DNA of 64,000 bases from an uncultured Poribacteria bacterium (GCA_951828385.1 OX639973.1:2407200-2471199); one strand, 5' to 3'. Numbered from the stretch's first letter, positions 1-61,767 are shown. Notes: generated from the sequence alone by a model not told the origin. Translations and numbers: made by a program.

Positions 1-135
1 GCTCGTAGTAGTGCGATTCTGCGGCGTACTTGCCCAAATGCGATCTGCATTATCGCACGTCCTAAAGCGCAATAAATTGCGCCACTACGAACCATCTATC
101 GGTTTAGATGTGACAGATTACTATGCATACTACTT
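1..135. repeat. Diverged partial copy of the palindromic repeat family seen at 9433-9813 (cgtagtag ... ctactacgaacc arms). The ORF-track start at 11 is probably an artefact of reading through it.
   Basis: gctcgtagtag...gcgccactacgaaccatc resembles gttcgtagtag...cgcactactacgaacctac of the 127-bp unit. The ORF-track peptide HYEP is shared with ORF 9751. Confidence 0.35.
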
Positions 136-3459: not shown

Positions 3460-3460
3460 T

Positions 3461-3517
3461 AGTTGTCAGTTATCAGTTTTAATAGTTTTCAGTTTTCGGT
3501 TATCAGTTGCCAGTTAA
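3461..3517. repeat. Heptameric array of seven units: GTTGTCA GTTATCA GTTTTAA.. GTTTTCA GTTTTCG GTTATCA GTTGCCA
   Basis: The 7-bp period is visible immediately after the ATPase stop. It is followed by the direct repeat tctgatgagaata x2 overlapping the next start codon. Confidence 0.5.
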
Positions 3518-3548
3518 GAGAGATAAAAATTTCTGATGAGAATATCTG

Positions 3549-5779: not shown

Positions 5780-6226
5780 CCCAAGTTGCCATTTGTAAAT
5801 CCATAGAATTTCCTACTTAAATCAGATTTAAGTTGCGTTAGAAATTGAATTTGAGTATAATTTGCCATGCTATGACATAATAACAAATAAAACATACTTT
5901 TATTCATTATGTCCTAATACAACCCAAGTTGCTACGGACAAGACTTTAGACCAGCTGACCTCGTATTTCACTGAAAAATGTCAATTAGCCAAGCATTTTG
6001 TAGCGTAAATTTTTAGTTTGCGGCATTTTCAAACACAATCTAACAGGTGATGCTACAAGGTGGCAACTTGCGTTATTTTAACAAAGAGTGATTGCAGTAG
6101 CTGACAGTTCAGAGAATCTTCCATCTTATTTTCGAGTATAAGTGTTTGGTAAAATTTTTGGATTTTTGAATTGTGCTGTCTATTAAAATTACCAATCACA
6201 ACACAAGCCGAGAGGAGTTTTAGTCT

Positions 6227-7855: not shown

Positions 7856-7941
7856 GGCTTACATCTATAAAAGTAAAGTTCCTTATGATATGGGGACGCT
7901 TTGCCATATCCCTTGGCACGCTTCAAAGCTCTGAAAGTAGA

Positions 7942-9453: not shown

Positions 9454-9813
9454 GTTTATAGGTAATCCTGTTCGTAGTAGGGCAATTCATTGCCCGTTGC
9501 TGACGTGCGATAAATCGCACTACTACGAACCTACCCTCAGATTCAAAGTTGAAAGACTACTAGTAGTGCTTCAATGTTGAGTTTATAGGTAATCCTGTTC
9601 GTAGTAGGGCAATTCATTGCCCGTTGCTGACGTGCGATAAATCGCACTACTACGAACCTACCCTCAGATTCAAAGTTGAAAGACTACTAGTAGTGCTTCA
9701 ATGTTGAGTTTATAGGTAATCCTGTTCGTAGTAGGGCAATTCATTGCCCGTTGCTGACGTGCGATAAATCGCACTACTACGAACCTACCCTCAGATTCAA
9801 AGTTGAAAGACTA
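9433..9813. repeat. Tandem repeat of 3 x 127 bp with nested palindromes (gttcgtagtag/ctactacgaac arms; gggcaattcattgccc; tgcgataaatcgca)
   Basis: Units start at 9433, 9560 and 9687 and are identical by eye. The total of 381 bp equals 127 codons. The repeat lies between the two halves of the split gene. Confidence 0.9.
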
Positions 9814-10899: not shown

Positions 10900-11042
10900 A
10901 TCTTTGGACCTTTGTCTGTCGCGTCTGATGCCCAAACAAACTGGAAACTAATGCATTTTTAGGATTGGTAAATCTTTAGCCCTCGTTAGTCGCGAGTTCC
11001 TTTCAACTAAAGCCTATAAGCGCAAATTGCATATAGTACCTT

Positions 11043-13175: not shown

Positions 13176-13341
13176 ACTTTTTTACCTTTGTCTGATCCGC
13201 CTGATGCTCAAACAATTTGGAAACTGATGCATTTTCAGGATTGGTGAATCTTTAGTCTTCGTAGGTCGCGAGTTCCTTTCAACTAAAGCCTATAAGCACA
13301 AACTGCGTATAATATCCAATGAAAAAAATACCTTTACTGAT

Positions 13342-18898: not shown

Positions 18899-19173
18899 AA
18901 AGTTCACACATCATCTGTAGACTGGAGGGTTGAGATCACCTCTTTTGGTTTTACCAAATAGTGGATTTGGGCAGATACGTTCTCATATCCTGCAGTCCAT
19001 TGAAATGTCTACGTATTTTTTATTCCACTATAAAATGCCCCTATGCTAAACTGATACAGTAGTTTGGACAATTCATGTCGCATTTCAGTTGCGTTCTCAA
19101 AGGTTGAAAGGGTTTTCTTTGGTGTTTCATCTGCCACAGAACTCGCTGAAAAATAACGGTAACTGCGAATTTG

Positions 19174-19242
19174 CCACAGGAGACCAACGGTTTCCTATGC
19201 TACAAAAGAACCACAGGCTAACGGTCTCCTATGCTACAAAAA
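19174..19242 (+). promoter_or_regulatory. Tandem direct repeat (2 x about 31-35 bp) CCACAGG..CAACGGTYTCCTATGCTACAAAAR upstream of glgB. It is flanked by TAAACTGATACA at 19047 and 19256.
   Basis: Both copies are visible. The core CCTATGCTACAAAAG is also present, as its reverse complement, inside the MITE at 44404 and in the MITE at 61697. Confidence 0.4.
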
Positions 19243-19272
19243 ACTGTCCAAACTTTAGTAAACTGATACATT

Positions 19273-21348
19273 ATGGGGAATCGACATTTGGCAGGAAACA
19301 CGGCTGACGGCACCGCCCTCATCAGAACTGATCCGTTGCTGAAACCTTACACTGCCCAACTGCGCGAGCGGTTTGCGCACTATCAACGTTTCAAAGCAGA
19401 GATTGAGAAAACGGGTGGTGTATTAGGCAAGATTAGCCAAGGACACCAATATTTCGGTTTCAACCGTGGCGAACACGAAGGCGAAACCGGGGTCTGGTAC
19501 CGCGAATGGGCACCCGGTGCGGAGCGGCTTGCGCTCATCGGCGATTTTAACGACTGGTCGCGCGATGCGAACCCGATGTCCGTTGATGATTGGGGTGTGT
19601 GGCACATCTTTTTGCCTGACAGCGAATATGCTGATCGGTTCACACACGGCAGCCGCGTCAAGGTGCATGTTGTCAGTAGGGACGAGGTGACCTCGCCCCT
19701 ACGTGGACTTGATCGGATTCCGGCATATATCCAGCGCGTCGTTCAGGAAGGCGATGCTGATTTCGCAGGTCAGTATTGGGCACCACAGCATCCGTATCAG
19801 TGGCAGCACCGTGCACCCGATTTTGACATCAACGCTGAAGGATTGCGGATTTACGAAGCGCATGTCGGCATGGCGCAAGAAGCAGAGAAGGTCGGAACAT
19901 TTGTTGAGTTTACGCAAAACATCTTGCCCCGAATTGTGGATTTAGGCTATAACGCTGTGCAGCTAATGGCGGTGATGGAGCATCCGTATTATGCGAGTTT
20001 CGGGTATCACGTGAGCAACTTTTTCGCTGTCTCAAGCCGTTTCGGAACACCGGAGGAGCTCAAGGAGCTCATTGATACGGCGCACAGTATGGGGTTGCTG
20101 GTTATCATGGATCTGGTGCATAGCCATGCGGTTAAAAATCTCAACGAAGGGTTGAGCCGTTTTGATGGCACGGAACATCAGTATTTCCACGCCGGGGCGA
20201 AAGGTGAACACGTCGCATGGGATTCGCTATGCTTCGATTATAGCAAATACGAGGTACAACGTTTTCTACTGAGCAATATTCGCTACTGGTTAGAAACCTA
20301 TCGGTTTGACGGATTCAGATTTGATGGTGTCACGAGTATGCTCTATAGCGATCACGGGTTAGAACGAGAGTTCACGGGCTATGCCGATTACTTTGACACC
20401 GATGTTGAACTGGACGCTATCGCCTACCTGATGTTGGCGAATGCGGTTGTTCATGCTGTCAACCCGGCTGCTATTTCGATTGCTGAAGACATGAGCGGTA
20501 TGCCCGGCCTTGCACGTCCTACCGAAGAAGGTGGACTCGGCTTCGATTATCGGCTTGCAATGGGGATCCCAGATTATTGGATTCGGTTGTTGAAGGAGAA
20601 ACAGGACGAAGCGTGGCAGATCGGCGAGATTTACGGTATGCTACGCGACCGCCGTGCAGGTGAAAAACACATCGCTTACGTCGAAAGCCACGACCAGTCG
20701 ATCGTCGGCGATAAGACGCTTGCTATGCAACTCATGGACACTGAACTCTACACGAACATGAGTGTTTCCACGACGAGCCATCTGATTTCTCGCGGCGTTG
20801 CGCTCCATAAACTCATCCGACTCCTGACGTTTAGTTTAGGTGGCGAGGGGTATCTGAACTTTATAGGAAATGAGTTCGGACACCCTGAATGGGTTGATTT
20901 TCCACGCGCAGGAAACAATAACTCCTACAAGTATGCGCGCAGGCAGTGGCACCTCGTTGAAGATGACACCCTCCGTTACAAACATCTCAACACTTTTGAC
21001 CGCGCGATGCAGCACCTCGATGCAACCTACCATCTGCTTGCTGATGCGGATATTCAACTTTTATGTATTCATGAGGAAGCGAAACAGATCGTTTATGCGC
21101 GGGGTGGACTCGTCTTTGCTTTCAACTTTCATCCGACTGAATCTGTTACGGATTGGCGTATCCCTGTGCCTGAGAAGACGGATTACCGACGCGTTCTCAA
21201 TACCGATGATACGGCATTCGGAGGCTACGGTGCTGTAGAGGGTGTCCATTATCCGTGGCAAGATGTTGCGATAGAGGGGCAGGCGCAATCGATTCAACTC
21301 TATGTCCCTGCCCGAAGTGCGCAGGTGTTAGTATCTGGTCATAAATAG
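19273..21348 (+). CDS. glgB: 1,4-alpha-glucan branching enzyme, GH13 (eukaryote-type GH13_8-like)
   Basis: GH13 catalytic regions FRFDGVTSMLY, GNEFGHPEW, ESHDQS and DLVHSHA. The length of about 690 aa is typical of eukaryote-like branching enzymes. Confidence 0.75.
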   Translation: MGNRHLAGNTADGTALIRTDPLLKPYTAQLRERFAHYQRFKAEIEKTGGVLGKISQGHQYFGFNRGEHEGETGVWYREWAPGAERLALIGDFNDWSRDANPMSVDDWGVWHIFLPDSEYADRFTHGSRVKVHVVSRDEVTSPLRGLDRIPAYIQRVVQEGDADFAGQYWAPQHPYQWQHRAPDFDINAEGLRIYEAHVGMAQEAEKVGTFVEFTQNILPRIVDLGYNAVQLMAVMEHPYYASFGYHVSNFFAVSSRFGTPEELKELIDTAHSMGLLVIMDLVHSHAVKNLNEGLSRFDGTEHQYFHAGAKGEHVAWDSLCFDYSKYEVQRFLLSNIRYWLETYRFDGFRFDGVTSMLYSDHGLEREFTGYADYFDTDVELDAIAYLMLANAVVHAVNPAAISIAEDMSGMPGLARPTEEGGLGFDYRLAMGIPDYWIRLLKEKQDEAWQIGEIYGMLRDRRAGEKHIAYVESHDQSIVGDKTLAMQLMDTELYTNMSVSTTSHLISRGVALHKLIRLLTFSLGGEGYLNFIGNEFGHPEWVDFPRAGNNNSYKYARRQWHLVEDDTLRYKHLNTFDRAMQHLDATYHLLADADIQLLCIHEEAKQIVYARGGLVFAFNFHPTESVTDWRIPVPEKTDYRRVLNTDDTAFGGYGAVEGVHYPWQDVAIEGQAQSIQLYVPARSAQVLVSGHK

Positions 21349-35769: not shown

Positions 35770-35805
35770 ACCACAACGGGCAATGAATTGCCCGACTACG
35801 AACAG
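35770..35805. repeat. Solo fragment of the palindromic repeat family (gggcaatgaattgccc + gactacgaac)
   Basis: Matches the core hairpin and right arm of the 127-bp unit at 9433-9813. Confidence 0.45.
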
Positions 35806-43504: not shown

Positions 43505-44308
43505 CTACAGCGCAGCGATTTTCTCACGTAAGAAGTTCGTACAAAAAGGCACTTGCGCTTCCGACAGTCCGTGCAGCACGACTGCGCCATCATAGCCGTT
43601 CTCTTTTAGCAAACCGAGATATTGATCGTAGTCCAGCAACCCCGTCCCCGCGGCGAGGTGTCCCGCCTGACCGTCCGTGTCCAAATCTTTGGCGTGTGCA
43701 AGCGCGATGTCGCCGCCGAGTAGCGCGAACGCCTCATCAAGGATTTCACGCATCTTTGGCAGCTCACCTTTGTGGAAGATATTCGCCCCGTCCATACACA
43801 CCTTCAGGTAAGGGGATTGCATCTCGTCCAGCAAACGACGTGCTTTCTCGGCAGAATCAATCACGTTTGCCACTTCAGGTTCAAGCGCAAGCGTTACGTC
43901 GTACTCCTCAGCTACTGCTAACGCCTGTTTCATAGATTCGACGAGGTCGCGCCATGCTTCTGGTGTGTTGTTATCAGGATGCGCGCGCCACATGCTCTGC
44001 GGGTCACGAGAGCCGGTGCAGAGCGTAATAACCGATGTGCCGAGTGGCGCGCATTTCTCTGCGACAGCACGCAACATCCGCAGCCCGGCGTGGCGTTTCT
44101 CAACATCTGGATCAATCATGTTATAAGTGCCTGAGAGTGCGGAGATCGTAATCTGTCGAGCGTCCATCTCTTCGCGGATCTCGGCAACCGACGGTCCCGA
44201 TGCCGGCACATGATATTGTAGATGATGGACACCGTGTTCTACAACGGCATCAAGATTCTCGGCGAGTGTTTCTCGGCGAATCGTTCCTTCCATGAGTCCA
44301 ACGTGCAT
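43505..44308 (-). CDS. Sugar phosphate isomerase/epimerase (xylose isomerase-like TIM barrel)
   Basis: AP-endonuclease-2/TIM-barrel pattern (…HLQYHV…, LEPE, HAKD…). Confidence 0.55.
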   Translation of the reverse strand: MHVGLMEGTIRRETLAENLDAVVEHGVHHLQYHVPASGPSVAEIREEMDARQITISALSGTYNMIDPDVEKRHAGLRMLRAVAEKCAPLGTSVITLCTGSRDPQSMWRAHPDNNTPEAWRDLVESMKQALAVAEEYDVTLALEPEVANVIDSAEKARRLLDEMQSPYLKVCMDGANIFHKGELPKMREILDEAFALLGGDIALAHAKDLDTDGQAGHLAAGTGLLDYDQYLGLLKENGYDGAVVLHGLSEAQVPFCTNFLREKIAAL

Positions 44309-44403
44309 TATATTCTCCTATAATCCCGCGATTTTTCACCCGAAGTCAACAGAACAATACTATAGGTTTTGTCCATTCGTAAACATACACAAGATTTAAA
44401 TCA

Positions 44404-44527
44404 ATAGGACTTACGCAGCGTGCTCTTTTGTAGCATAGGCTGTTAGCCTGTGCCCTGAGAACGTCTCGGTCTCTTCAGAGTTTACTCGCTAACGGAGCGT
44501 CATATCGTCAAAAATGCGTAAGTCCTA
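44404..44527. mobile_element. MITE-like element, 124 bp, with terminal inverted repeats TAGGACTTACGCA
   Basis: ataggacttacgca at 44404 and tgcgtaagtccta at 44514. A second, 124-bp, roughly 70%-similar copy lies in inverted orientation at 61610-61733. Confidence 0.7.
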
Positions 44528-44669
44528 ATTAAGTTTCAATCTCGCACTCGAGATTCATTTCATTTCAACCGTTCAATCAACGCTTTCAGTTCATCAGGCG
44601 TTCCAGTAAAACTGGGGAAACTTATATCGGGGACGCTCACACCACAGATGACTTTCAGAGCGTCACCGT

Positions 44670-45881
44670 TTATTTAGGTAGGTTTACCGGAATCGGGTGC
44701 CATGCCCCACCTGTTACGGCTGCGAGGTATTTATGCTTAGGTTCATCAATACCCAGCACATTGGCATACACTTTATTTTTTCGACAGAGATTGATTGCAT
44801 CATCTACAGTAAACCCGTGTAGACTCGTGAACGGTTCATCTGTAACGAGGATAAGGTGTTTGATAGCATTGCTGCGGAACCGCAGCTTCATCACAGTTTC
44901 ATTGACGGCATCTAATGCGTGTTCATCACCACCCAATTGAATCCCATAGAGTGCGGCTTTGTACTTTGATAAATCCTGCGTCAGCTGGAAGACATGGATA
45001 CGATTCTGATTCTTTTCATTTATTGAGAAATGCGTCAGACCGAGTTGATAGTCAATCTCCGATGCTTTGTAGGCATCAACCATCTCTCCAAGATGTTCTG
45101 CGACGGCGTTGATATTATCGCCCATACTCCCAGAGGCATCTACGACGAAAACGACATCCACGGGGGCTCCGTCACCTTCGCCACTGCTGTCAATAATATC
45201 TTCTGTCAGTTCCTTGATGATGCTTGAAAAAGTAGACTGCTCTGCACCGGTTCCAAAGATTCCCTGCCCCTGCCCCGCACCAATCTCAGCGACACCATCG
45301 CCGATATCCTGTCCTGCGCCTGTCTCTTTCGTCCATTTCCTGGTCCCCGCACCGGCACCTTTGCGAGGATTTTTGATGCGCGGTCCCTGGCGTCCTATAT
45401 AACGGTTTTCAACATCAGCAGCCGCCGTTGATTGCCTTACAGACACTACAGAATCCGGTGCCGTCGGTAAATCGGCATCTGTGGATAATGCAATCGGGAC
45501 ATCCACATCTATTTTTGCCGCCGGGGGCTGTTGAATATCAACCGCTGTAGGTGCTCTGGGGAGCATTCTCGCAATCGCCAATGATGCTTCAGGCTTCATG
45601 ATATCCACCGGCTTTTCTACAGGTAGTTTCTTTTGTATCGGCACCTCTACCTTTTTGATGGGCGTTTGGATCTCTATGACTTTCTGCTTGACGATCTCCT
45701 GCGGCGGTAACGCTTCAATCAACTCTACATGGATTTTATCTTCTACTTCCTGCGTTTTAGGTTTGAGAAAAAAGATAGAAAACCCGATCATCATGATGAT
45801 ATGGACGATCGCAGAAATTCGCAACGCATAGGTACGATATTGTTGACGAAACGCTTTTTGAAGCACTCTACTATTCATCAT
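44670..45881 (-). CDS. von Willebrand factor A domain membrane protein
   Basis: N-terminal TM helix, a Pro-rich linker, and a vWA MIDAS-like DVVFVVDASGSMG. Confidence 0.6.
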   Translation of the reverse strand: MMNSRVLQKAFRQQYRTYALRISAIVHIIMMIGFSIFFLKPKTQEVEDKIHVELIEALPPQEIVKQKVIEIQTPIKKVEVPIQKKLPVEKPVDIMKPEASLAIARMLPRAPTAVDIQQPPAAKIDVDVPIALSTDADLPTAPDSVVSVRQSTAAADVENRYIGRQGPRIKNPRKGAGAGTRKWTKETGAGQDIGDGVAEIGAGQGQGIFGTGAEQSTFSSIIKELTEDIIDSSGEGDGAPVDVVFVVDASGSMGDNINAVAEHLGEMVDAYKASEIDYQLGLTHFSINEKNQNRIHVFQLTQDLSKYKAALYGIQLGGDEHALDAVNETVMKLRFRSNAIKHLILVTDEPFTSLHGFTVDDAINLCRKNKVYANVLGIDEPKHKYLAAVTGGAWHPIPVNLPK

Positions 45882-48083: not shown

Positions 48084-48165
48084 GTCCATAGGACTGACGC
48101 AGGATCATTTAGTTTTAGATGAATTATCGGATTGTCTCAATTTTTGAATTTTCTTTTTCAGTCCC

Positions 48166-48392
48166 GGTGCGGTTCCAAACCGCCAATGCGTTGGGTTTCT
48201 CTCGGTTTTTTGTTTCATATCCGATCTATGGAGAAAGTTAGGTTTGTGTTGCTTTTCAGAGTTTTGGGGTATCCGTTCAACCCAACCTACGGGATGATAA
48301 GGTTTTTTCTTAAATTGACACCTATGGTGCGGTTCCAAACCGCGCCTACCGGGCCTGGGGGGTCCAAAATTGGGTGAAAAAACCGAGAACTA
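48166..48392. other. Structured intergenic element with two copies of the hairpin ggtgcGGTTccaaAACCgc about 160 bp apart and long-range complementarity tctcggtttttt/aaaaaaccgaga. Candidate small RNA or REP-like repeat.
   Basis: Seen at 48166-48184, 48326-48346, 48196-48209 and 48379-48391. Confidence 0.35.
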
Positions 48393-50783: not shown

Positions 50784-50917
50784 CCGCCAGCCATCGTTGA
50801 TTTTGTAGCATAATTTGTTAGATTGTGGCTATGAGAGCGCAGACTAACAGTCTACGCTACAAAATTCCTGTGAATAATGAACCCGTTAAACAATTAGGTT
50901 CCAACCGGAGTAGACTT

Positions 50918-53813: not shown

Positions 53814-56351
53814 TTGGAAGGACACCTTGTGGAAAAAGAAAATGATGTTCAACTGATTCAAAGAATATTATCAGGCGATGAAGCAGCGTTTGATGTCTTG
53901 GTCCAAAGGCACCAGAAGAGCGTGCACGCCTTGGCGTGGCGGAAGATCGGCGATTTCCATGATGCTGAGGAGATTACACAGGACACATTCCTTCAGGTAT
54001 ACAAAAAACTCCCGACACTCAAGGACCCTTATAAATTTGCTGGGTGGTTGTATGTCATCACAAATCGGCTTTGTCTTGATCGGATGCGGCAGAAAAACCT
54101 TACGATACAATCGTTGGAGGACACACCTGTGGAAGAAGTTGAAAAATCCTCTTATACCCATCACGTATCGGAACAACGGCATACAGAAATCACCGAGCGT
54201 CGTCGTGCTATCGTCAAAAAACTTCTCGAAAAACTCCCAGAGAGTGAACGGACAGTCATGATCCTCCATTATCTCGGCGAAATGACGGTGAAAGAAATTA
54301 GCAAGTTCCTGGGCATCTCTGCAAACGCAATTCATAACCGGCTGTATCGGGCACGAAAGCGGTTACAAGAGGAAGAATCCCTCCTTGTTGAAGAAGTTCT
54401 CGGTGGTGTGCAGATACCGGCGAGTGTCAGCCAAAACATTATGCAGCGGGTCGCTGACATAAAACTCGCGCCGCAAACAACTCCAAAACCCGTTACTCCG
54501 TGGATCGCTTTCGGTACCGTTTTCCTTCTGCTTGCATTACTCCTTGGGGCGAGCAATCAATACCTCACCCGTTTTCAGAAACCGTACAGTTTCGAGGCGA
54601 CATCTGAACCGACCATCGCCATCGTTGACGCCCCCGTCGTTCTTGAGACCGACGCGAAACCCGCACTGCGAAGTCAAGTTGGACAGGATACCGCCTTAAA
54701 TCAAAGAACTGGTGCAGGCTTACATGGATCTGAAACTGTCTCAACAACGGGGTTACCGAAGCAGCCAGAAAATATTGAGGCATGGATGCCAGATGAAAAT
54801 CTACGTCGGGCTATCAAATCTGAACTCAAACTTGGCGATATTCCGCTTGAGATAGCACATCTCCGGCAACTTGAGCGGTTACTCAGTATTGGGGACAGCA
54901 TAGAAAGTATTGTCGGCTTAGAACATGCTGTCAATCTTAAAATTCTACATCTTGCGCCCAACAAAATCTCGGATCTCACACCACTCGCGAACCTACACAA
55001 CCTTCGGATACTGAAGCTCTATCTCAACAGACTTGTAGACGTTTCACCCCTTGCGGGATTAGTAGGTTTAGAGACTTTGCATCTACAAAATAACGAGATC
55101 GTTGACATCTCACCCCTTGCCGGACTCGTCAACCTAAGGGATTTACAACTCGATGGCAATCACATCGAATATTTTTCACCGCTCGCCGGATTAACAAAAC
55201 TTCAGGTCCTTAGGATTAACGACAACAGAGCGATCGATATTTCATCTATCCGGACATCCAATTTGACAGAATTTCTGTATGATCCGACCTTTAATATCCC
55301 AGAGATTCCGAACCGTGACCGGATCATGGCTCGCCAGTATCCATCCGTTTTCGCAGCCTTGCATAACATCGTCAATTTACCGACGCTCTCATGGGACGAA
55401 AGATTAGTCTACCACGACCTGTATTTCTCTAACCCTATGTTTGGGCTTCATTGGCGGTGGACTCCTACAAGAATGAAAATCTCTGGAAATTTTCGGACAG
55501 CAAAGCAACAGCGAAATACGATGCTTAAAGAGAATCCAAATATGATTTTTCTCGTCGGGATTTATCACTATGGTACACAAGATACATTCGTTCAGCAGGC
55601 TGTTGAAGTTGCCAAATGTGGCATCTATGATGGTATCTTTTTAAATTGGTGGCAAGGCGAAAGGGTTGATGCAAAAGTTGCTATACTGCAGAAAATTCGT
55701 GAAGTGGTTAGAGATGATTTTCTCATTATCGTCAACGGGCTTCGTTCTAAAGCGCCACACTTAGCCCCCTATGTCAATGGCACATTCATGGAAACGAGAC
55801 GGGACCATCCACAGAGTTACACGCATACCGAACTTCAAGAGATTGAAAGCACTTTGCTATGGTCAGAGAAAAATCTTCGATCTCCACAGATTAATTCCTT
55901 AGAGGGTTGGGGACTCGCTGAAGAACCCTTAGATTCACCGCGTAACCAGCAATGGATGCGGGTCTTTACAACCTTGAGTTTAACGCATTCTGACGGCTAT
56001 GTTTCATACGTAACGGGGATTTCATCACTCAACCACACACATCATTATCCCATTTGGAAGGGACATTCCGACGAACACGCACAAGGAAAACTACACGATC
56101 ATACGCATCAGCACTACTGGTATGATTTCTGGGATGCGGATCTCGGCCAGCCAATAGGTGGAAAAGGACAGCGCTACCGCGATCGCGCTGGGTTATTCAT
56201 TCGGGAGTTTACCAACGGATGGGTAGTCTATAACCGCAGCGGGAAAGCACAGCGGATCCAGTTGCCGATGCAAGTCGCTGGTGTTACGAGTGGTATCACC
56301 AGCACATCACATCCTGTCCCTGATTTAGACGGTGAGATCTTCCTAAAGTAG
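53814..56351 (+). CDS. ECF sigma-70 factor fused via a single TM helix to an extracytoplasmic LRR plus TIM-barrel glycosidase-like domain
   Basis: Sigma region 2 (EEITQDTFLQVYKKL...AGWLYVITNRLCLDRMRQ). Region 4 (LPESERTVMILHYLGEMTVKEISKFLGISANAIHNRLYRARKRL). TM helix VTPWIAFGTVFLLLALLLGA. LRRs (L..L.L..N.I.D.SPLAGL). Conserved C-terminal domain shared with 56536 and 58739. Confidence 0.65.
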   Translation: MEGHLVEKENDVQLIQRILSGDEAAFDVLVQRHQKSVHALAWRKIGDFHDAEEITQDTFLQVYKKLPTLKDPYKFAGWLYVITNRLCLDRMRQKNLTIQSLEDTPVEEVEKSSYTHHVSEQRHTEITERRRAIVKKLLEKLPESERTVMILHYLGEMTVKEISKFLGISANAIHNRLYRARKRLQEEESLLVEEVLGGVQIPASVSQNIMQRVADIKLAPQTTPKPVTPWIAFGTVFLLLALLLGASNQYLTRFQKPYSFEATSEPTIAIVDAPVVLETDAKPALRSQVGQDTALNQRTGAGLHGSETVSTTGLPKQPENIEAWMPDENLRRAIKSELKLGDIPLEIAHLRQLERLLSIGDSIESIVGLEHAVNLKILHLAPNKISDLTPLANLHNLRILKLYLNRLVDVSPLAGLVGLETLHLQNNEIVDISPLAGLVNLRDLQLDGNHIEYFSPLAGLTKLQVLRINDNRAIDISSIRTSNLTEFLYDPTFNIPEIPNRDRIMARQYPSVFAALHNIVNLPTLSWDERLVYHDLYFSNPMFGLHWRWTPTRMKISGNFRTAKQQRNTMLKENPNMIFLVGIYHYGTQDTFVQQAVEVAKCGIYDGIFLNWWQGERVDAKVAILQKIREVVRDDFLIIVNGLRSKAPHLAPYVNGTFMETRRDHPQSYTHTELQEIESTLLWSEKNLRSPQINSLEGWGLAEEPLDSPRNQQWMRVFTTLSLTHSDGYVSYVTGISSLNHTHHYPIWKGHSDEHAQGKLHDHTHQHYWYDFWDADLGQPIGGKGQRYRDRAGLFIREFTNGWVVYNRSGKAQRIQLPMQVAGVTSGITSTSHPVPDLDGEIFLK

Positions 56352-56481
56352 CGACATCGCCTACAGATGCCGATAGCGATGGAACGTCAACATCTTTAAC
56401 CCCGTTGCCATCGAAAATAGTTTTTATAGTGAAGCCCGAAAATATGTGAACATTCCACGGTAGAGATCCGCACGCCCCACT

Positions 56482-56510
56482 CGTAGGGGTTGGGTTACCC
56501 AACCCCTACG
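56482..56510. other. Perfect 29-bp palindrome cgtaggggttgggt t acccaacccctacg (14-bp stem)
   Basis: It lies between the first and second LRR paralogs. No U-tract follows. Confidence 0.5.
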
Positions 56511-56535
56511 GTGCCCCGCGGATGCACAAATAATT

Positions 56536-58602
56536 ATGGGCTTTACTATAACTCCAGAGAGACAAACGAATTCCTACTACCCATATAGGAGAATACGCCT
56601 TGTGAAAATTAATAGATTCATATTTGCAATTATATTCACCGGATTGCTACTGATTGTCACACCCGGAGGCATCACACACGCCCAAGAATGGATGCCGGAT
56701 GCGATCCTCCGCCATGCCATCTCCGAGAAGTTGGGGATTGAAACACTAACGATTGCGGATATGCAACGCCTCGATCACTTTGTGGCTGATGGTAAATTCA
56801 AGGCTGATCTTAGAGAAATTCAGAGTCTTAAAGGGTTGGAACACGCCATCAATCTTAAATTCTTAGCCATCAATTTTACGAAAGTGTCGGATATAACACC
56901 GCTTGCGGGACTCGAAAATTTACGCGGCTTAGGGTTGGGTCATAATAGGATTACGGATATAACACCCCTCGCCGGTTTGATACACTTACAAGAGTTGAAC
57001 TTGCAAGATAACCAGATTTCAGATACTTCGCCGCTTAAAGGGTTGGTGAACCTCAAAGTGTTGGACTTAGCAGGAAATCAGATCGTCGATTTTACACCGA
57101 TTTATGGGCTTACCGGCATAGAAACATTACGTCTGGGTCTGACAGGATCAGGGATATCTTTAGACTCAGAAGTCTTGCAGAGGCTGAATCCGGTAGACGG
57201 GCCAGTTGTTTGTGAAATAGCAAGAGCACCTATACACTCTCGCCTTGAAAACATAACGTACCCATCAGTTTTTCAAGCCTGTGGGGATATAATCAATCTG
57301 CCAGAACTTTCGCGGGCGGAGGGGATAGCGTATCACGATCTGTTTTTCTGCCGTGAAACATTCGGGTGGACTTGGATTCCTACGTCAGGCGGAAAACTGA
57401 GATTAAGAGGAGACCTTGAGGAGGCCACGAGAGCAACAGATCAAATACGCTCTCAGAATCCAAATATGCTTTTCCTTACAAGCATAGAGTACTATGTTGC
57501 GAATCGAGACGAATATCCAGAAGATTGGCCATATTGGTTCAGAAATGGATCCGGAAATAGATTAGAAATTACGGGATGGGATCAATATGTAAAAGACTTC
57601 ACGCATCCTGCTGTGCAAGAGATGGTTATCCAACAAGCGATTGAAGTTGCAAAATGTGGGGTTTTTGACGGAATTGCCATAGATCATTGGGCGAAGGCAC
57701 TTGAAGGATATATAACCGTAGAAGAAGCCGATACCGCAAAGGATCGTATCATACAAGGGATTCGTGATGCTGTTGGTGAGGATTTCTTGATACTGGTAAC
57801 GACGACTAACACGATTGGCACGACTATTCCGAGGCATGCGGAATATATCAATGGACTTTTCATGGAAACTTATGAAGATTATGAGGGCGGTTATACCTAC
57901 GCAAAACTTTCTGAAATTGAAAGCACGCTGTTGTGGGCTGAAGAAAACCTCCGAGAGCCGCAAATCAACTGTTTGGCAGGCAGGGGCGTTAGGAGCGAAC
58001 CGCTGGATTCTCCGAGAAATCTACAATGGATGCGTCTGTGGACGACGATGAGTTTGACGCATTCAGATGGCTATGTCATGTTTACTATGGGAGGTGGCCT
58101 TGACCATCCCCCCCACGTCTTTGAATTTTTGCCGGGTCATGCGGATGCTCATGCACAGGGCATACGTCACACTCACCAAAACACGAAGTACTGGTACGAC
58201 TTCTGGGAGGCGGATCTCGGTCAACCGGTTGGTGGCGACGAAACCAAAGCGCAGCTTTATGAGGATCGCGAGGGGTTGTTTATCCGGGAGTTCACTAACG
58301 GTTGGGCGGTGTATAATCGGTCTGGTACAGCACAGGAGATAGAACTTCCGCAGGCGGTTTCCGGCTGGTCGAGCGGTGTGGAGAATCAACACCGGCATAC
58401 GTTGGCGGATTTGGACGGTGAGATTTATTTGAAGGTGCCCGTCGTGATGGCGGATGTCAATGGTGATGGCACGGTGAATGTGTTGGACCTCGTCATCGTC
58501 GCTAATGCGTTGGGGGAAGCGGCACCGGATATCAATGGCGATGGCACCGTTGATGTCTTAGATTTAGTGTTGGTCGCGAACGCCTTCAAAGACCCCCAAT
58601 AA
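56536..58602 (+). CDS. Secreted LRR plus glycosidase-like domain protein with a C-terminal dockerin type-I repeat pair
   Basis: Hydrophobic leader. LRRs. A conserved core ([14 protein letters not shown]...LTHSDGYV...[14 protein letters not shown]...[14 protein letters not shown]). [14 protein letters not shown] / [14 protein letters not shown]. Confidence 0.6.
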
Positions 58603-58738
58603 GTATGAGTCATGCGACATCATTTATCGGAAATAGTATAAGATCCACCCTAATTCCATAAAAAAGGTTCTGTTTATACAAAAGATTACGCGATTATTTA
58701 TCAAAGTTACGTTACACAAACGAATGAGGTAAAGCCCT

Positions 58739-61303
58739 ATGAAAATCAAGCCCTCTTTTTGCTACAGTTTCCACCTTCTTTTTATGTTTTTCTATCTCAG
58801 TCTTACGCCTGTGCACGCCCAAGACTGGCTCCCTGATCCAGTGTTACGGAAAACGATTCGGGAATCTCTGGGGCTACCGGCAAACACACCGCTGACAAAA
58901 GACCGTATGCAACAACTGATAAGTCTTGATGGAGTTAACAAAGGCATCACGGATCTCCGGGGTTTAGAGTTTGCGACGCACCTAAGAATCCTGCGCTTGG
59001 GAGGTAATGAGAATAACATCACAGATATCCGTCCGCTTGCCAACTTAACAAGTCTTGTAGGGCTTCATATCTGGCGTGTTCGGCGACACGACACGCATCG
59101 GGCACCCCTCGACATCCGTCCGCTTGCCAATCTCGTCAACTTAGAGGTGCTCTCTCTGGAACGACAGGGACTTTCGGATATAAGCGTGCTTGCGAACCTA
59201 ACAAAGCTTCATAAGTTAGCACTGACGCACAACAACATCGTCGACTTTAGCCCGTTAGCAGGATTGACACATCTGCGGACGTTGTGGATAAAAAACAACT
59301 GGGGGACGGATTTGAGTCCACTTGAAGGGTTGAATATTACAGATTTCCGCTATGACGAAGTGTGTGATTTCACACCGGAAGGGGAGTCCGTCACTGCGCG
59401 TGTTGAGAACAGAACATTTCCGTCGATAGTCGCGCTGTTTCCGAAAGGGTCAATAGAGGAGATGACCCGGTATGATTTCTATTATGGCACCCATTTCGGG
59501 TTGTGGTGGAAGCGAACGGAAACCGAGCCGACACACGGCTTAGCGATTCGATTTTCAGGGGATATTGTGCAAGCCAGAGAGCACCGCCAACAGATGCTCC
59601 AACAGAATCCAAATATGTTGTTTTTTCTCGGGGTAGCTTTGCATAACCACAACCCTCCCGTTGCGGCAACGGCTTTTCCAGCAGATTCCGATTTTTGGCT
59701 GCGAGATCGTCAAGGGAATATCATCCAGAATGCGAATGATGCGTGGATGTTCAATATTTTGAACCCAGCGTTACAGAATATGCTGATTGAACGAATTGTA
59801 GGCTTTGCAAAGTGCGGTATTTTTGATGGTGTCCTGTTAGATGAAATGGGAAACTATGGTATTGGCGGATCAGGTCACGCGTTTTACCCGGCAATAACAG
59901 ATGTGCCCTTAACGAAGGAAGCGATTATTGAGGCGCACATCCGAATTCTAAGCGAGGTCCGCGCCCGCGTTCCTGAGGACTTTTTGATCGTCGTCAATGC
60001 TACGAGACACAAAATTCCACTCGTTGCGGCATACATCAATGGTAATGTGATGGAACCGGGTTCGGATTATTCATACAGAGGACTTGCCGAGATTGAAAGC
60101 ACTTTACTTTGGTCTGAGGAACATTTCCGAGAACCGCAGCTGAATTGGGCACAAGGGTTTCTTATCACCTCGGAACCCCCGGAGAGTCCTGGGAACCGTC
60201 AACGAATGCGGCTCTTTACAACGATGGGACTCACACACTCCGATGGCTACATAAACGTCCACTATCATTCACAGAGTTGGCAGCGGTGGGGAGATGTCGC
60301 TGCAAATCACTGGTATGACTTCTATGATGCCGACCTCGGCACGCCGATCGGCGAAACAGCGCAACGCTGCGACGACTGCGAAGGTCTCTTCGTGCGTGAG
60401 TTCACCAACGGGTGGGCGGTCTACAACCGGAGCGGCAAAGCACAGACGATCCAATTGCCCGTCAAAGCCACGGGTGTCGCAAGTGGTATCACAAACACCC
60501 AACATATCGTCCCCGATTTAGATGGTGAGATATATCTGAAACAGGCACCCAGTGTGAATAGCGTTGGCATTGTCACCGTGCTTGCGGTTGCGACCGGGGC
60601 GCCGCAGGAACCCGAATCCGCATGGATGCCGGATGCCGCCTTGCGAGCGGTAGTTCGCGAAGAAATGGGGCTTCCAACACATATCGCTTTGGAAAAATCC
60701 CGTATGCCACAGTTAATCCATGTTGACGGAAACAACAAAGGCATCACAGACCTGACGGGTTTGGAGTTTGCGACGAACCTAAGAAACTTGCACGTGGGGG
60801 GTCATAAGAATCAGATAACCGACCTTCGCCCGCTTGCGAACTTGACGAGCCTCGCGCATCTCTATATCTGGCGGATACCGCCAAACACGCGTCTTGTCGC
60901 ACTTGACATCCGTCCGCTCGCCAATCTTATCAACTTAGAGGCACTCTCACTGGCGGGAAACGGGATTACCGATATAACCCTACTGGCGGGCATGAAGAAG
61001 CTCGGCAAACTCATCCTTACAGATAACCGGATTGAAGACTTTAGTCCGCTGGCTAAACTGATAAGTTTACGAACGTTGAGGATTCGGAACAACCCCGGCA
61101 CAGATTTCAGCCCACTTGCCGCTTTACCCCTTATCGATTTTCGCCTTGATGCCGATGTCAACGCCGATGGATTTGTGAATGTGCTCGACCTTGTTACCGT
61201 CGTCAACGCATTTGGCGAAACTGACCCCGATCTCAATGGCGATGGCGTTGTCAATATTCAGGATTTGGTCATTGTGGCGAACGCCTTCAGAGACCTCCAA
61301 TAA
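58739..61303 (+). CDS. Secreted LRR – glycosidase-like – second LRR module – dockerin protein (internal LRR duplication)
   Basis: Signal peptide. The LRR block near residues 30-200 is re-used at about 630-800 (WMPDAALRAVVREEMGLP...). Dockerin pair DVNADGFVNVLDLV / DLNGDGVVNIQDLV. Confidence 0.6.
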   Translation: MKIKPSFCYSFHLLFMFFYLSLTPVHAQDWLPDPVLRKTIRESLGLPANTPLTKDRMQQLISLDGVNKGITDLRGLEFATHLRILRLGGNENNITDIRPLANLTSLVGLHIWRVRRHDTHRAPLDIRPLANLVNLEVLSLERQGLSDISVLANLTKLHKLALTHNNIVDFSPLAGLTHLRTLWIKNNWGTDLSPLEGLNITDFRYDEVCDFTPEGESVTARVENRTFPSIVALFPKGSIEEMTRYDFYYGTHFGLWWKRTETEPTHGLAIRFSGDIVQAREHRQQMLQQNPNMLFFLGVALHNHNPPVAATAFPADSDFWLRDRQGNIIQNANDAWMFNILNPALQNMLIERIVGFAKCGIFDGVLLDEMGNYGIGGSGHAFYPAITDVPLTKEAIIEAHIRILSEVRARVPEDFLIVVNATRHKIPLVAAYINGNVMEPGSDYSYRGLAEIESTLLWSEEHFREPQLNWAQGFLITSEPPESPGNRQRMRLFTTMGLTHSDGYINVHYHSQSWQRWGDVAANHWYDFYDADLGTPIGETAQRCDDCEGLFVREFTNGWAVYNRSGKAQTIQLPVKATGVASGITNTQHIVPDLDGEIYLKQAPSVNSVGIVTVLAVATGAPQEPESAWMPDAALRAVVREEMGLPTHIALEKSRMPQLIHVDGNNKGITDLTGLEFATNLRNLHVGGHKNQITDLRPLANLTSLAHLYIWRIPPNTRLVALDIRPLANLINLEALSLAGNGITDITLLAGMKKLGKLILTDNRIEDFSPLAKLISLRTLRIRNNPGTDFSPLAALPLIDFRLDADVNADGFVNVLDLVTVVNAFGETDPDLNGDGVVNIQDLVIVANAFRDLQ

Positions 61304-61609
61304 TCTGAGACAGATAAGTAGATTGTTCAGGCGTTTCCGTACACCGTAGGGGTAATATTGCCTCACAGTAAGAATAGAAACAGCGTATTTAAGCAACTGC
61401 ACCCGGTATGAAGTTTAAGAAAATATTCGGGTAATTCTATAAAGAACAGTTCTCAATCAAGACGGTTCTATTATCCAGCAAATCCTTGAACCCTGTAAAT
61501 CCTGATTCAGACAATGGATACCTACATTACCCGATTAAATTCTTAATCTTCATTAGGGGTGCTATTGCTTCGCAGTGAGAATGCATAGGTAGCAACTTAT
61601 GTTACTTCT

Positions 61610-61733
61610 ATAGGACTTACGCAATTTTGACTGCAGCCCGTTCTGTTAGATGAGAATTTTCGGAAAACACAGCGTTCTGGTGGCACAAACTGGGAAGTTT
61701 GTGCTACAAAAGAGCAGCATGCGTAAGTCCTAT
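61610..61733. mobile_element. Second copy of the 124-bp MITE-like element (inverted relative to the 44404 copy)
   Basis: ataggacttacgca ... tgcgtaagtcctat. The internal tgctacaaaagagc matches the reverse complement of copy 1. Confidence 0.7.
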
Positions 61734-61767
61734 TCTAATCGAACTCACCTTAAAATTACATAAACAC

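What the first reader, a model, noticed from the sequence alone, without database searches (positions are those of the whole stretch)
44404..44527. A 124-bp MITE-like element family whose internal motif matches direct repeats upstream of glgB
Two 124-bp elements (44404-44527 and 61610-61733, in opposite orientations) share 13-bp terminal inverted repeats TAGGACTTACGCA and similar interiors. Their internal CTATGCTACAAAAGAG motif is the same sequence that is tandemly repeated (2 x about 33 bp) just upstream of glgB at 19174-19242, and a related GCTACAAGG lies at 6056. Either the MITE has seeded regulatory sites, or a regulator-binding motif has been captured by a mobile element.
Basis: seen in the sequence. 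Interest (0 to 1): 0.55.

Follow-up and report, generated by a model that had tools for sequence, protein, structure and literature searches.

The report
IS701-type MITE carrying a REP hairpin
The two 123-bp elements are real miniature transposons of a family found across many bacterial and archaeal phyla, and the motif they share with the glgB upstream repeats is a second kind of selfish repeat (a REP hairpin served by its own tyrosine transposase) that rides inside them, not a demonstrated regulatory site.

Summary
Elements at 44405-44527 and 61611-61732 have perfect 13-bp terminal inverted repeats (TIRs), TAGGACTTACGCA, and lie in opposite orientations. Their target-site duplications (TSDs) are 5 bp: TTCTA perfect, ATCAA/ATTAA 4 of 5.

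They are MITEs of an IS701-family transposon:
- ISPlag1 has the same terminus (12/13) and a 5-bp TSD.
- A full element in a sponge-associated chromosome-size contig, apparently poribacterial, has 13/13.
- The same TIR pair bounds unrelated ~110-140-bp interiors in more than 116 genomes, from Cyanobacteria and Poribacteria to Methanosarcina.

The shared internal motif is a 32-nt unit: an 8-bp covarying hairpin followed by CTACAAAA. On the other strand this reads GTAG plus an imperfect palindrome, which is a REP.
- The window holds eight units: two inside the MITEs, two inverted dimers (5993-6063, 50798-50867), and the tandem pair before glgB.
- That tandem pair itself sits inside a second, unrelated MITE (19057-19258).
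- In sponge metagenomes about 85-90% of units are free-standing and extragenic, some in tandem arrays.
- The units flank a REP-associated tyrosine transposase (RAYT) gene in Poribacteria genomes.

So a mobile element captured a REP. It did not seed regulatory sites. These are new members of known kinds and of moderate interest.

The parts
44405..44527 (-). MITE copy A (123 bp). TIRs at 44405-44417 and 44515-44527. Flanking 5-mers are ATCAA (44400-44404) and ATTAA (44528-44532), matching 4 of 5. It lies between a xylose-isomerase-like gene (43505-44308, -) and a VWA gene (44670-45881, -).
   Evidence: Copies 97.6-98.4% identical sit at other sites (L100, L247, L309); two of them have perfect 5-bp TSDs, CAAAT and CGTTA. 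As single-stranded DNA it folds with a TIR stem plus the REP hairpin, z = -4.0.
61611..61732 (+). MITE copy B (122 bp). TIRs at 61611-61623 and 61720-61732. Perfect 5-bp TSD TTCTA (61606-61610 and 61733-61737). It lies between two convergent genes.
   Evidence: Fold z = -5.4. The nearest relative is in L047, at 91% identity.
44423..44454 (-). REP unit inside MITE A: CACAGGCT-AAC-AGCCTATG hairpin followed by CTACAAAAGAG. Its GTAG head points to the nearer TIR.
   Evidence: Covariance model R1, 49.3 bits. Its 28-nt core (TTTTGTAG plus the hairpin) is identical to the unit immediately downstream of the RAYT gene in a Poribacteria MAG, L363 3768-3799.
61682..61714 (+). REP unit inside MITE B: CACAAACT-GGGA-AGTTTGTG followed by CTACAAAAGAG.
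   Evidence: R1, 40.7 bits. Its stem carries compensatory changes relative to copy A.
5993..6063 (.). Inverted REP dimer with the GTAG heads outside ('HH' dimer, REPIN-like). Units at 5993-6024(-) and 6032-6063(+).
   Evidence: R1, 40.2 and 36 bits. It is the reverse complement of the dimer at 50798-50867 (pairs I11 and I22). Folding the whole dimer gives no support, z about 0.
50798..50867 (.). Inverted REP dimer with the GTAG heads outside. Units at 50798-50829(-) and 50836-50867(+). It lies between two xylose-isomerase-like genes.
   Evidence: R1, 42.1 and 42.2 bits. It folds as one long hairpin, z = -3.8. The orthologous gene pair in L311 is separated by only about 24 nt and has no dimer.
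19178..19244 (+). Tandem (head-to-tail) REP pair. Units at 19178-19209 and 19210-19244.
   Evidence: R1, 20.5 and 35.6 bits. Direct repeat of 27 nt at 89% identity, spacing 34.
19057..19258 (+). Second, unrelated MITE-like element (202 bp) that contains the tandem REP pair. TIR is about CWRWAGTTTGGACARTT. The 10-bp TSD TAAACTGATA lies at 19047-19056 and 19259-19268, and ends 4 nt before the predicted glgB ATG at 19273.
   Evidence: Other copies are L301 (perfect 17-bp TIR, 9-bp TSD TAAGTTATA) and L322 (left part 94% identical, at another site, with the REP expanded to roughly 15 tandem units). The downstream ORF has CBM_48, Alpha-amylase and Alpha-amylase_C domains.

Best explanation
Two different non-autonomous mobile repeats are nested here.

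**(1) The 122-123-bp elements are MITEs.**
- They are moved in trans by an IS701-family DDE transposase.
- The transposase recognises the 13-bp termini TAGGACTTACGCA and inserts with a 5-bp staggered cut into AT-rich intergenic DNA.

- It is the tail of a 32-nt unit: an 8-bp imperfect hairpin (CRCA-NN-CT, loop AAC, AG-N'N'-TRYG) followed by CTACAAAA.
- On the complementary strand this reads GTAG plus a palindrome, which is the layout of a REP.
- REPs are the single-stranded-DNA substrates of a REP-associated tyrosine (HUH/Y1) transposase, or RAYT.
- Poribacteria genomes encode such a RAYT, flanked by these same units.

**How the two relate.**
- One poribacterial MITE family acquired a REP next to one TIR and has carried it ever since.
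- The glgB-upstream pair is REP cargo of a second, unrelated MITE.
- The other sites in the window are ordinary inverted REP dimers.

**Shown versus inferred.**
- Shown: the anatomy, the covariation, the TSDs, the matching IS termini, and the RAYT flanked by the units in related genomes.
- Inferred: that these transposases actually move the elements, how the REP entered the MITE, and whether any of this affects neighbouring genes.
For: **MITE**
- Exact TIRs, far above chance.
- Of 120 same-TIR copies from more than 100 genomes, 75 have a perfect 5-bp TSD and 18 match at 4 of 5. A shifted-flank control gives 0 perfect.
- Nothing is conserved beyond the 13 bp across lineages, only 0-0.3 bits per position.
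- ISPlag1 on a Planktothrix plasmid has TIR CAGGACTTACGCA, TSD ACTGT and a 337-aa transposase. The transposase scores 408 bits on NCBIfam IS701 model NF049921, whose cut-off is 250.
- A roughly 1.1-kb element in a 4.8-Mb sponge-associated contig has the exact 13-mer at both ends, TSD TTACA and a DDE transposase (L364).
- A truncated copy lies in a labelled Poribacteria chromosome (L365 = OZ243935.1).
- Copies 97.6-98.4% identical to copy A sit at three other sites.

**REP**
- Across 17 units the hairpin is paired in 88% of cells. There are 15 double-change cells against 3.7 in shuffles (0 of 500 shuffles reach this), and slid controls give 30-50% pairing.
- In an independent metagenome scan, the two free stem positions form Watson-Crick pairs on both sides in 124 of 135 distinct hits, using eight dinucleotide combinations. 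Independence would give 26.8.
- Units are extragenic: 13% lie inside open stretches of at least 150 codons, against 80% of all bases.
- They occur as inverted dimers and as tandem arrays of period 29-33.

**RAYT**
- In L290, a 249-aa ORF is flanked upstream by units in one orientation and downstream by units in the inverse orientation.
- It matches NCBIfam REP_Tyr_transpos at E = 5e-19. Its best PDB hit is E. coli TnpA-REP, 4er8.
- It has an HVH motif, and a Tyr that aligns with catalytic Y115.
- Homologues at 63-84% identity are named Candidatus Poribacteria by NCBI, and one is named RayT by JGI.
- In three further contigs, two of them NCBI Poribacteria MAGs, the gene is again bracketed by inverted units (L360, L363, L366).

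**Capture**
- All 12 family-1 MITE copies, from 11 assemblies, carry the unit at the same place.
- The ends of the poribacterial IS do not contain the unit.
Against: - Neither a RAYT nor an IS701 transposase is encoded in the 64-kb window. Co-residence in this particular genome is therefore inferred from related genomes.
- The RAYT score is below NCBIfam's curated cut-off (68.6 against 80), and the Pfam Y1_Tnp score is also below cut-off (18.2 against 23).
- Every homologue of the poribacterial IS701 transposase N-terminus found in the protein database is 125 aa or shorter, and the full-length copy in L364 is frameshifted. The MITEs may therefore no longer be mobile.
- No clean empty site was found for either window copy.
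- Several free units lie 28-170 nt upstream of gene starts, so a secondary regulatory effect is not excluded.
Confidence: 0.82

Rival explanations
1. The unit is a binding site for a regulator, or part of a promoter. It controls glgB and other genes, and the MITE either spread it or picked it up.
For: Free units lie upstream of gene starts in several places: 28 and 63 nt before glgB, 163 nt before 6227, about 45 nt before the probable start at 50913, and similarly in L115 and L116. Strong hairpin covariation would also fit a protein- or RNA-recognised site.
Against: - In each inverted dimer, one unit points into the 3' end of a gene.
- Tandem arrays of 5 to about 15 units exist.
- MITE-borne units have mixed orientation relative to genes, 8 pointing at starts and 13 at ends.
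- The dimer at 50798-50867 is absent from the orthologous spacer in L311.
- No sigma-70 or sigma-54 spacing fits the conserved bases (my reading).
- The units bracket a RAYT gene in inverted orientation in several genomes.
- The glgB pair arrived inside a transposable element with its own TSD.
Confidence: 0.1
2. The free-standing units are decayed fragments of the 123-bp MITE. In other words, the MITE seeded them.
For: The unit sits next to a TIR in every family-1 MITE. Some metagenome hits are MITEs with a degenerate TIR, for example 'gcgtaaatcct' and 'gtgtaagtcct'.
Against: - 146 of 160 hits have no TIR within 40 nt, and at most about 8 of those look like decayed TIRs.
- Free units form regular inverted dimers and tandem arrays that a decaying MITE would not produce.
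- They occur inside a second MITE type with different TIRs.
- They flank the RAYT gene.
- The window's free units share nothing with the MITE beyond the 32-nt unit.
Confidence: 0.04
3. The hairpin is a subterminal structure that the IS701-type transposase itself needs, so it is an integral part of the MITE end and not a foreign REP.
For: - ISPlag1 has covarying palindromes just inside both TIRs.
- TTTTG..TAGC occurs near both ends of family-1 MITEs.
- GTAG-tagged hairpins recur inside same-TIR MITEs of other phyla: 11 of 117 MITEs, rank 3 of 256 tetramers.
Against: - The ends of the full-length poribacterial IS have no such unit.
- Across 117 MITEs nothing beyond position 13 is conserved.
- Other poribacterial MITE families with the same TIRs carry different hairpins or none.
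- Most units are nowhere near a TIR.
Confidence: 0.04

Closest known systems
ISPlag1 (IS701 family, Planktothrix agardhii) and its 197-bp remnants (Christiansen et al. 2008, PMC2464740)
   Same: The terminal 12 of 13 nt are identical (CAGGACTTACGCA against TAGGACTTACGCA). It makes a 5-bp TSD and has a single DDE transposase of the IS701 family.
   Different: ISPlag1 is autonomous (1.3 kb). Its subterminal sequence is a different palindrome, and its interior is unrelated to the window MITEs. The host is a cyanobacterium.
Nezha MITE of Anabaena variabilis / Nostoc PCC 7120, attributed to ISNpu3-like transposases (Zhou et al. 2008, as described in PMC3184786)
   Same: It is a small non-coding element of similar size with TIRs and direct repeats, found in Nostocales. 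By recollection of the original abstract (not in the text read here), transfer to Polaromonas was proposed for it. Same-TIR MITEs are abundant in Nostoc genomes and on plasmid alpha of PCC 7120, and ISPlag1 homologues occur on Polaromonas plasmids.
   Different: Nezha's TIR sequence is not in any text I could read, so identity is unverified. Nezha is given as about 130-170 bp, whereas this element is 122-123 bp.
REP / REPIN-RAYT systems of Enterobacteria and Pseudomonas (Nunvar 2010; Bertels & Rainey 2011; Ton-Hoang 2012; Messing 2012, PMC3479197; Di Nocera 2013, PMC3733652)
   Same: - GTAG lies immediately 5' of an imperfect hairpin that contains a stem mismatch.
- The units are extragenic and high in copy number, and form inverted dimers.
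- There is an HUH/Tyr transposase gene bracketed by inverted units, and it shares the same neighbouring genes in two of the genomes examined.
   Different: - The hairpin is AT-rich and short (8 bp), and the conserved tail TTTTGTAG is longer than GTAG.
- Long head-to-tail arrays occur, whereas Di Nocera reports head-to-tail dimers as absent or rare in most genomes.
- The RAYT is about 250 aa, with an insertion, and scores below the curated cut-off.
- The host is the candidate phylum Poribacteria. In a library search combining Poribacteria with REP, RAYT and REPIN terms, none of the 12 listed papers mentions Poribacteria.
Anabaena variabilis GTAG-15 REP dimers embedded in long palindromes (Di Nocera 2013, PMC3733652)
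   Same: REPs are regularly found inside a larger element bounded by inverted repeats.
   Different: That host element was not characterised as a MITE with a TSD and a cognate IS. Here two distinct TIR/TSD-bounded carriers are defined.

Membership tests
MITE derived from or served by an IS701-family insertion sequence | Terminal inverted repeats that match those of an autonomous IS | tested here: met
   ISPlag1 matches at 12/13. The element in L364 matches at 13/13 at both ends.
MITE derived from or served by an IS701-family insertion sequence | Target-site duplication of the same length as the parent IS | tested here: met
   The TSD is 5 bp: TTCTA for copy B and 4 of 5 for copy A. Of 120 copies, 75 are perfect, against 0 in the control. 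ISPlag1 has ACTGT and L364 has TTACA.
MITE derived from or served by an IS701-family insertion sequence | Small, non-coding, multi-copy, at different sites | tested here: met
   The copies are 122-123 bp. Eighteen family-1 copies lie at distinct flanks, and three are at least 97.6% identical to copy A.
MITE derived from or served by an IS701-family insertion sequence | A co-resident functional transposase, or demonstrated mobility (filled versus empty site) | tested here: inconclusive
   The window has no transposase. Poribacterial copies are frameshifted or truncated. No empty site was recovered for the window copies.
REP (GTAG-tagged repetitive extragenic palindrome) of a RAYT system | Conserved GTAG immediately 5' of an imperfect palindrome | tested here: met
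   TTTTGTAG lies next to an 8-bp stem. A C.A mismatch is present at stem position 3 in 10 of 17 units.
REP (GTAG-tagged repetitive extragenic palindrome) of a RAYT system | Hairpin maintained across copies | tested here: met
   One search gives 88% pairing with 0 of 500 shuffles reaching the observed value. One search gives 124 of 135 both-sides Watson-Crick, against 26.8 expected.
REP (GTAG-tagged repetitive extragenic palindrome) of a RAYT system | Abundant and extragenic | tested here: met
Only 13% of units lie inside long open stretches, against 80% of all bases. A per-genome count was not obtainable.
REP (GTAG-tagged repetitive extragenic palindrome) of a RAYT system | A tyrosine (HUH) transposase gene flanked by the same repeats in inverted orientation | tested here: met
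   Met in L290, L360-L363 and L366. This holds in related genomes only, not in the window.
REP (GTAG-tagged repetitive extragenic palindrome) of a RAYT system | The protein belongs to the RAYT family by a curated model | tested here: inconclusive
   NF047646 scores 68.6 bits against a cut-off of 80 (E = 5e-19). Pfam Y1_Tnp scores 18.2 against 23. The top PDB hit is TnpA-REP 4er8. The HUH motif and the Y115 equivalent are present.
REP (GTAG-tagged repetitive extragenic palindrome) of a RAYT system | RAYT binds and cleaves the repeat as single-stranded DNA | not testable with these tools
   This needs biochemistry.
Nezha MITE | Same TIR and TSD as ISNpu3 / Nezha | not testable with these tools
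   No held text gives Nezha's sequence. The only evidence is shared hosts and size range.
Transcription-factor site or promoter element | Consistent position and orientation relative to regulated genes, and conservation at orthologous sites | tested here: not met
   Orientations are mixed and tandem arrays occur. The unit is absent from the orthologous spacer in L311.
CRISPR array or known structured RNA | Repeats separated by unique spacers, or a match to a curated RNA family | tested here: not met
   Arrays have a period of 29-33 with no spacers. There is no Rfam hit at gathering score and no tRNA in the window.

The most novel reading that the evidence does not exclude
REP hairpins may be recurrent, non-accidental cargo of DDE-type MITEs.

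**What was seen:**
- In Poribacteria, at least four same-TIR MITE families and one unrelated MITE type carry GTAG-tagged hairpins.
- Similar GTAG hairpins sit in same-TIR MITEs of Nostocales, Chloroflexi and others.

**What it could mean:**
- REPs, which are normally tied to a single-copy, vertically inherited RAYT, may hitch-hike on horizontally mobile MITEs and so gain a second means of spread.
- Alternatively, RAYT may prefer MITE hairpins as landing sites.
Probability: 0.25. Interest if true: 0.6.

Novelty: new member of a known kind. Interest (0 to 1): 0.42.

Why it matters
**Annotation.** The result turns an apparent 'regulatory motif shared by a MITE and a promoter' into a concrete, testable picture. 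Poribacteria, which are uncultivated sponge symbionts, carry a REP/RAYT system and an IS701-type MITE superfamily, and the two are physically nested. This guards against over-reading shared intergenic motifs as regulons.

**Mobile-DNA biology.** It offers three things:
- A cross-domain set of MITEs that share only 13 terminal bases.
- A REP family with unusually clean stem covariation and long head-to-tail arrays.
- Natural chimeras in which substrates of a DDE transposase and of an HUH transposase are combined.

**glgB.** A 202-bp element has inserted 4 nt before the predicted glgB start codon. Either the start or the promoter of that gene needs re-examination.

Tried and rejected
- **Promoter readings.** Sigma-70 (-35/-10), sigma-54 (GG-N10-GC) and Bacteroidetes-type readings of the unit were tried. 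The spacing does not fit (my reading).
- **Terminator reading.** The T-run lies 5' of the hairpin on one strand and an A-run lies 3' on the other, so it is not an intrinsic terminator.
- **Known RNAs.** Rfam at gathering score and the tRNA scan of the window found nothing.
- **Viral-contig scan.** A scan for the IS terminus gave 120 loci that were essentially chance 14-mer hits, with one MITE and no IS.
- **Full-length IS in the first 116 genome loci.** The search found only more MITEs and solo ends.
- **Transposase searches by tblastn.** ISPlag1 transposase and E. coli RayT were run against the window and gave nothing. The decisive hits came only after the metagenome scan.
- **Flanking genes.** Exact-protein look-ups of the genes flanking both MITE copies, to find empty sites, were not on record. 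The upstream region of the 43505 orthologue in L311 is not alignable.
- **MITEAba12.** Checked as a possible relative, but it has different TIRs and a 9-bp TSD.
- **Second RAYT.** A more distant RAYT homologue (L366) was checked in case it served the second REP-like family (GTTCGTAGTRG). It is flanked by family-1 units instead.

Full report
**1. The observation**

The 13-mer TAGGACTTACGCA occurs exactly four times in the window, as two inverted pairs: 44405-44417 with 44515-44527, and 61611-61623 with 61720-61732. With up to two mismatches there are 7 matches against 0.91 expected, and no shuffle reaches 7 (sequences).

They align better as reverse complements (82%) than in the same orientation (73%), so they lie in opposite orientations.

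The motif CTATGCTACAAAAG is exact at 19195(+) and 44425(-), and has one mismatch at 19229(+). It has two mismatches at 61699(+), 50800(-) and 50852(+). That is 7 matches against 0.29 expected.

**2. The 123-bp elements are MITEs of an IS701-family transposon**

*Distribution and target duplications.*
The hosts include Cyanobacteria, Candidatus Poribacteria, Acidobacteria, Chloroflexi, Beta- and Gammaproteobacteria, candidate-phyla-radiation bacteria, Bacteroidota, and the archaea Methanosarcina and Methanospirillum.
- The interiors are unrelated between lineages. Beyond position 13 the ends carry only 0-0.3 bits per position.
- Of 120 copies, 75 are flanked by a perfect 5-bp direct repeat and 18 by a 4-of-5 match. 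A control with the left flank shifted gives none.
- Targets are AT-rich.
- In the window, copy B has TTCTA on both sides. Copy A has ATCAA and ATTAA.

*The matching insertion sequence.*
- A literature search for the terminus found ISPlag1 of Planktothrix, whose TIR is CAGGACTTACGCAAGCACGCTATATATAG and which is assigned to the IS701 group.
- I located a copy on plasmid 2 of P. agardhii NIES-204. It has the TIRs, a 5-bp duplication ACTGT and a 337-aa ORF. The ORF scores 408 bits on NCBIfam's IS701 model NF049921, whose cut-off is 250.

*Copies in sponge-associated genomes.*
- A roughly 1.1-kb element in a 4.8-Mb sponge-associated contig has the exact 13-mer at both ends, the duplication TTACA and a DDE transposase split into two overlapping ORFs (L364).
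- A truncated copy lies in OZ243935.1, a labelled Poribacteria chromosome (L365).
- A nested copy lies on a metagenome contig that also carries the units described below (L265).

*Limits on the mobility claim.*
- No such transposase is in the window.
- All 100 database homologues of the poribacterial N-terminus are 125 aa or shorter, so current mobility is uncertain.
- Against that, copies 97.6-98.4% identical to copy A sit at three other sites, two of them with perfect duplications. This argues for recent movement.

*Source organism.* The window itself is probably poribacterial. One of those near-identical copies is in the single-cell genome WGA-3G (L100), and the gene content fits, with dockerin, LRR and xylose-isomerase-like genes.

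**3. The shared motif is the tail of a hairpin unit**

Lining up the eight window sites shows CRCA-NN-CT, loop AAC, AG-N'N'-TRYG, and then CTACAAAA.

*Evidence that the hairpin is maintained.*
- In 17 units (8 from the window and 9 from MITEs of other Poribacteria), the 8-bp stem is paired in 88% of cells.
- There are 15 double-change cells against 3.7 in shuffles, and 0 of 500 shuffles reach the observed value. Slid controls give 30-50% pairing.
- A C.A mismatch at stem position 3 is present in 10 of 17 units.
- A covariance model finds exactly these eight sites above 20 bits in the window.
- An independent test came from a metagenome scan with the pattern CACANNCTAACAGNNTRTGCTACAA. Of 135 distinct hits, 124 form Watson-Crick pairs at both free positions, using eight different dinucleotide combinations. 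Independence would give 26.8.

*Why it looks like a REP.* On the other strand the unit reads TTTTGTAG followed directly by the hairpin. GTAG 5' of an imperfect palindrome containing a stem mismatch is the defining layout of REPs.

**4. The units belong to a RAYT system**

*How the units are distributed.*
- In the metagenome loci, 146 of 160 units have no MITE terminus within 40 nt, and about 8 of those look like decayed termini.
- Units are extragenic: 13% lie within open stretches of at least 150 codons, against 80% of all bases.
- They occur singly, as inverted dimers, and as head-to-tail arrays of period 29-33.

*The transposase gene.*
- A tblastn search with E. coli RayT found one weak hit, in L290.
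- That 1.4-kb contig is a 249-aa ORF preceded by about eight units in one orientation and followed by about eight in the inverse orientation.
- The protein matches NCBIfam REP_Tyr_transpos at E = 5e-19. Its 68.6 bits are below the cut-off of 80.
- Its best solved relative is E. coli TnpA-REP, 4er8.
- It has an HVH motif and a Tyr and Asn that align with catalytic Y115 and N119.
- Homologues at 63-84% identity are labelled Candidatus Poribacteria by NCBI, and one is called RayT by JGI.

*The gene in its genomic context.*
- In L363 (an NCBI Poribacteria MAG) and in L360 (a 1.6-Mb assembled contig) the gene has the same neighbours. It is bracketed by units at 2925-2991(+) and 3768-3799(-).
- The core of the downstream unit (TTTTGTAG plus the hairpin, 28 nt) is identical to the one inside window MITE A.
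- A more distant homologue in L366, another NCBI Poribacteria MAG, is bracketed in the same way.

These are the hallmarks of a REP/RAYT system.

**5. How the window's eight units are arranged**

- **Two inside the MITEs** (44423-44454 and 61682-61714). They lie next to one TIR, with the GTAG head towards that TIR.
- **Two inverted dimers with GTAG outside** (5993-6063 and 50798-50867). This is Di Nocera's 'HH' type.
  - They are reverse complements of each other.
  - The second folds as one long hairpin, z = -3.8, whereas the first does not.
  - The orthologous gene pair in L311 is separated by about 24 nt with no dimer. This also moves the likely start of the downstream gene to about 50913.
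- **One head-to-tail pair before glgB** (19178-19244). It lies inside another mobile element, 19057-19258.
  - That element has TIRs of about CWRWAGTTTGGACARTT and a 10-bp duplication TAAACTGATA.
  - Other copies exist with a perfect 17-bp TIR and a 9-bp duplication (L301).
  - Another copy has the REP pair expanded to roughly 15 units (L322, whose left part is 94% identical to the window, at a different site).

The glgB repeats were therefore not seeded by the 123-bp MITE. They are REP cargo of a second MITE, which inserted 4 nt before the predicted ATG.

**6. How the REP came to be in the MITE**

- All 12 family-1 copies, from 11 assemblies, carry the unit at the same position.
- The ends of the poribacterial IS lack it.
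- Together these point to a capture in the family's ancestor, or a RAYT-mediated insertion into it. I cannot tell which.
- One metagenome copy has the unit amplified to at least five tandem copies next to the TIR (L317).
- Other poribacterial MITEs with the same TIRs carry other GTAG-tagged hairpins (L115, L052, the L002 type).
- Across 117 MITEs, GTAG is the third most frequent of 256 tetramers abutting a hairpin. It is found in 11 MITEs against a mean of 2.5, and 8 of those are outside Poribacteria.
- This is suggestive of a general association, but related copies inflate the count.
- Di Nocera et al. noted REP dimers inside long palindromes in Anabaena variabilis, so there is precedent.

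**7. Regulation**

- MITE orientation relative to genes is mixed: 8 copies point at a gene start and 13 at a gene end.
- Some free units lie 28-170 nt upstream of gene starts.
- However, dimers always have one unit pointing the wrong way, array length varies, and an orthologous site is empty.
- A side effect on expression is possible, as it is for REPs elsewhere. Nothing here shows one.

**8. Verdict**

The finding is real but ordinary in kind. It is a MITE of a widespread IS701-associated superfamily, possibly the family published as Nezha, which I could not verify. It carries a REP of a poribacterial RAYT system. The nesting of REPs in two MITE types and the long head-to-tail arrays are the less usual features.

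Noticed in passing
window 1-92, 9433-9818, 35773-35803; L115 3940-4061: A second REP-like family: GTTCGTAGTRG followed by a hairpin such as GGCAATTCATTGCC.
- There are 9 heads in the window against 1.3 expected.
- They include inverted dimers inside a perfect 3 x 127-bp tandem repeat at 9433-9818.
- The same unit sits inside a same-TIR MITE of another Poribacteria genome (L115).
- Its transposase was not found.
   Followed up: partly
window 48089-48360: A decayed third MITE of another poribacterial family (the L002 type).
- The left TIR is TAGGACTGACGCA (1 mismatch) and the right end is eroded.
- There are two copies of GGTGCGGTTCCAAACCGC (48166 and 48327). With the following CCTACC these form yet another GTAG-tagged hairpin on the other strand.
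   Followed up: partly
window 19047-19273: The 202-bp TGTCCAAACT-type element and its 10-bp duplication end 4 nt before the predicted glgB ATG. Either the true start codon or promoter is elsewhere, or the element supplies the promoter.
   Followed up: partly
L364 2423-3522; L365 2431-2800; L265 10124-10540; proteins P0121-P0220: The poribacterial IS701-type transposase is broken wherever it was examined.
- All 100 homologues of its first 71 residues are 125 aa or shorter.
- In L364 it is two overlapping ORFs (124 + 221 aa), with a frame change at QYSG|DHARK.
- This could be decay, assembly error at a G-run, or programmed frameshifting. I did not resolve which.
   Followed up: partly
L322 about 3331-3824; L255 1514-1952; L326 1318-1760; L317 15-155; L286 3460-3583: Head-to-tail arrays of 4 to about 15 REP units, period 29-33 bp and with no spacers. 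One such array lies directly against a MITE terminus (L317). Such arrays are described as rare for REPs.
   Followed up: partly
L237 3002-3050 and 4260-4307: Both ends of ISPlag1 carry a palindrome just inside the 13-bp terminus: ACGCTATATATAGCGT at one end and CACACTATATATAGTGTG at the other. The differences between the two are compensatory.
   Followed up: no
L360 and L363, 1-6753: The RAYT gene keeps the same neighbours in two assemblies, one an NCBI Poribacteria MAG (L363) and one a 1.6-Mb contig (L360): PSCyt2/PSD1, an Mrr-like nuclease, RAYT, 3-keto-disaccharide hydrolase-like, Fe-ADH. This fits a single-copy, vertically inherited gene. L366 has different neighbours.
   Followed up: partly
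window 7885-16711 and 53814-61303: Two sets of tandem paralogous genes.
- Three copies of a roughly 3-kb unit, 71-83% identical, containing 'GDFQMG'-type sequences (7.9-16.7 kb).
- Three LRR / GHL15 / dockerin-type genes (53.8-61.3 kb).
   Followed up: no
metagenome loci L242, L259, L268, L275, L296, L308, L345; also L246, L270, L273, L276, L278: REP units recur with fixed neighbouring sequences, so they are modules of still more composite repeats.
- One is 'cattcagactgg'-unit-'agatgtctatttatttttaggattcactataa'.
- Another is unit-'gtggcaacttgcgtta', which is also seen at window 6060-6078.
   Followed up: no
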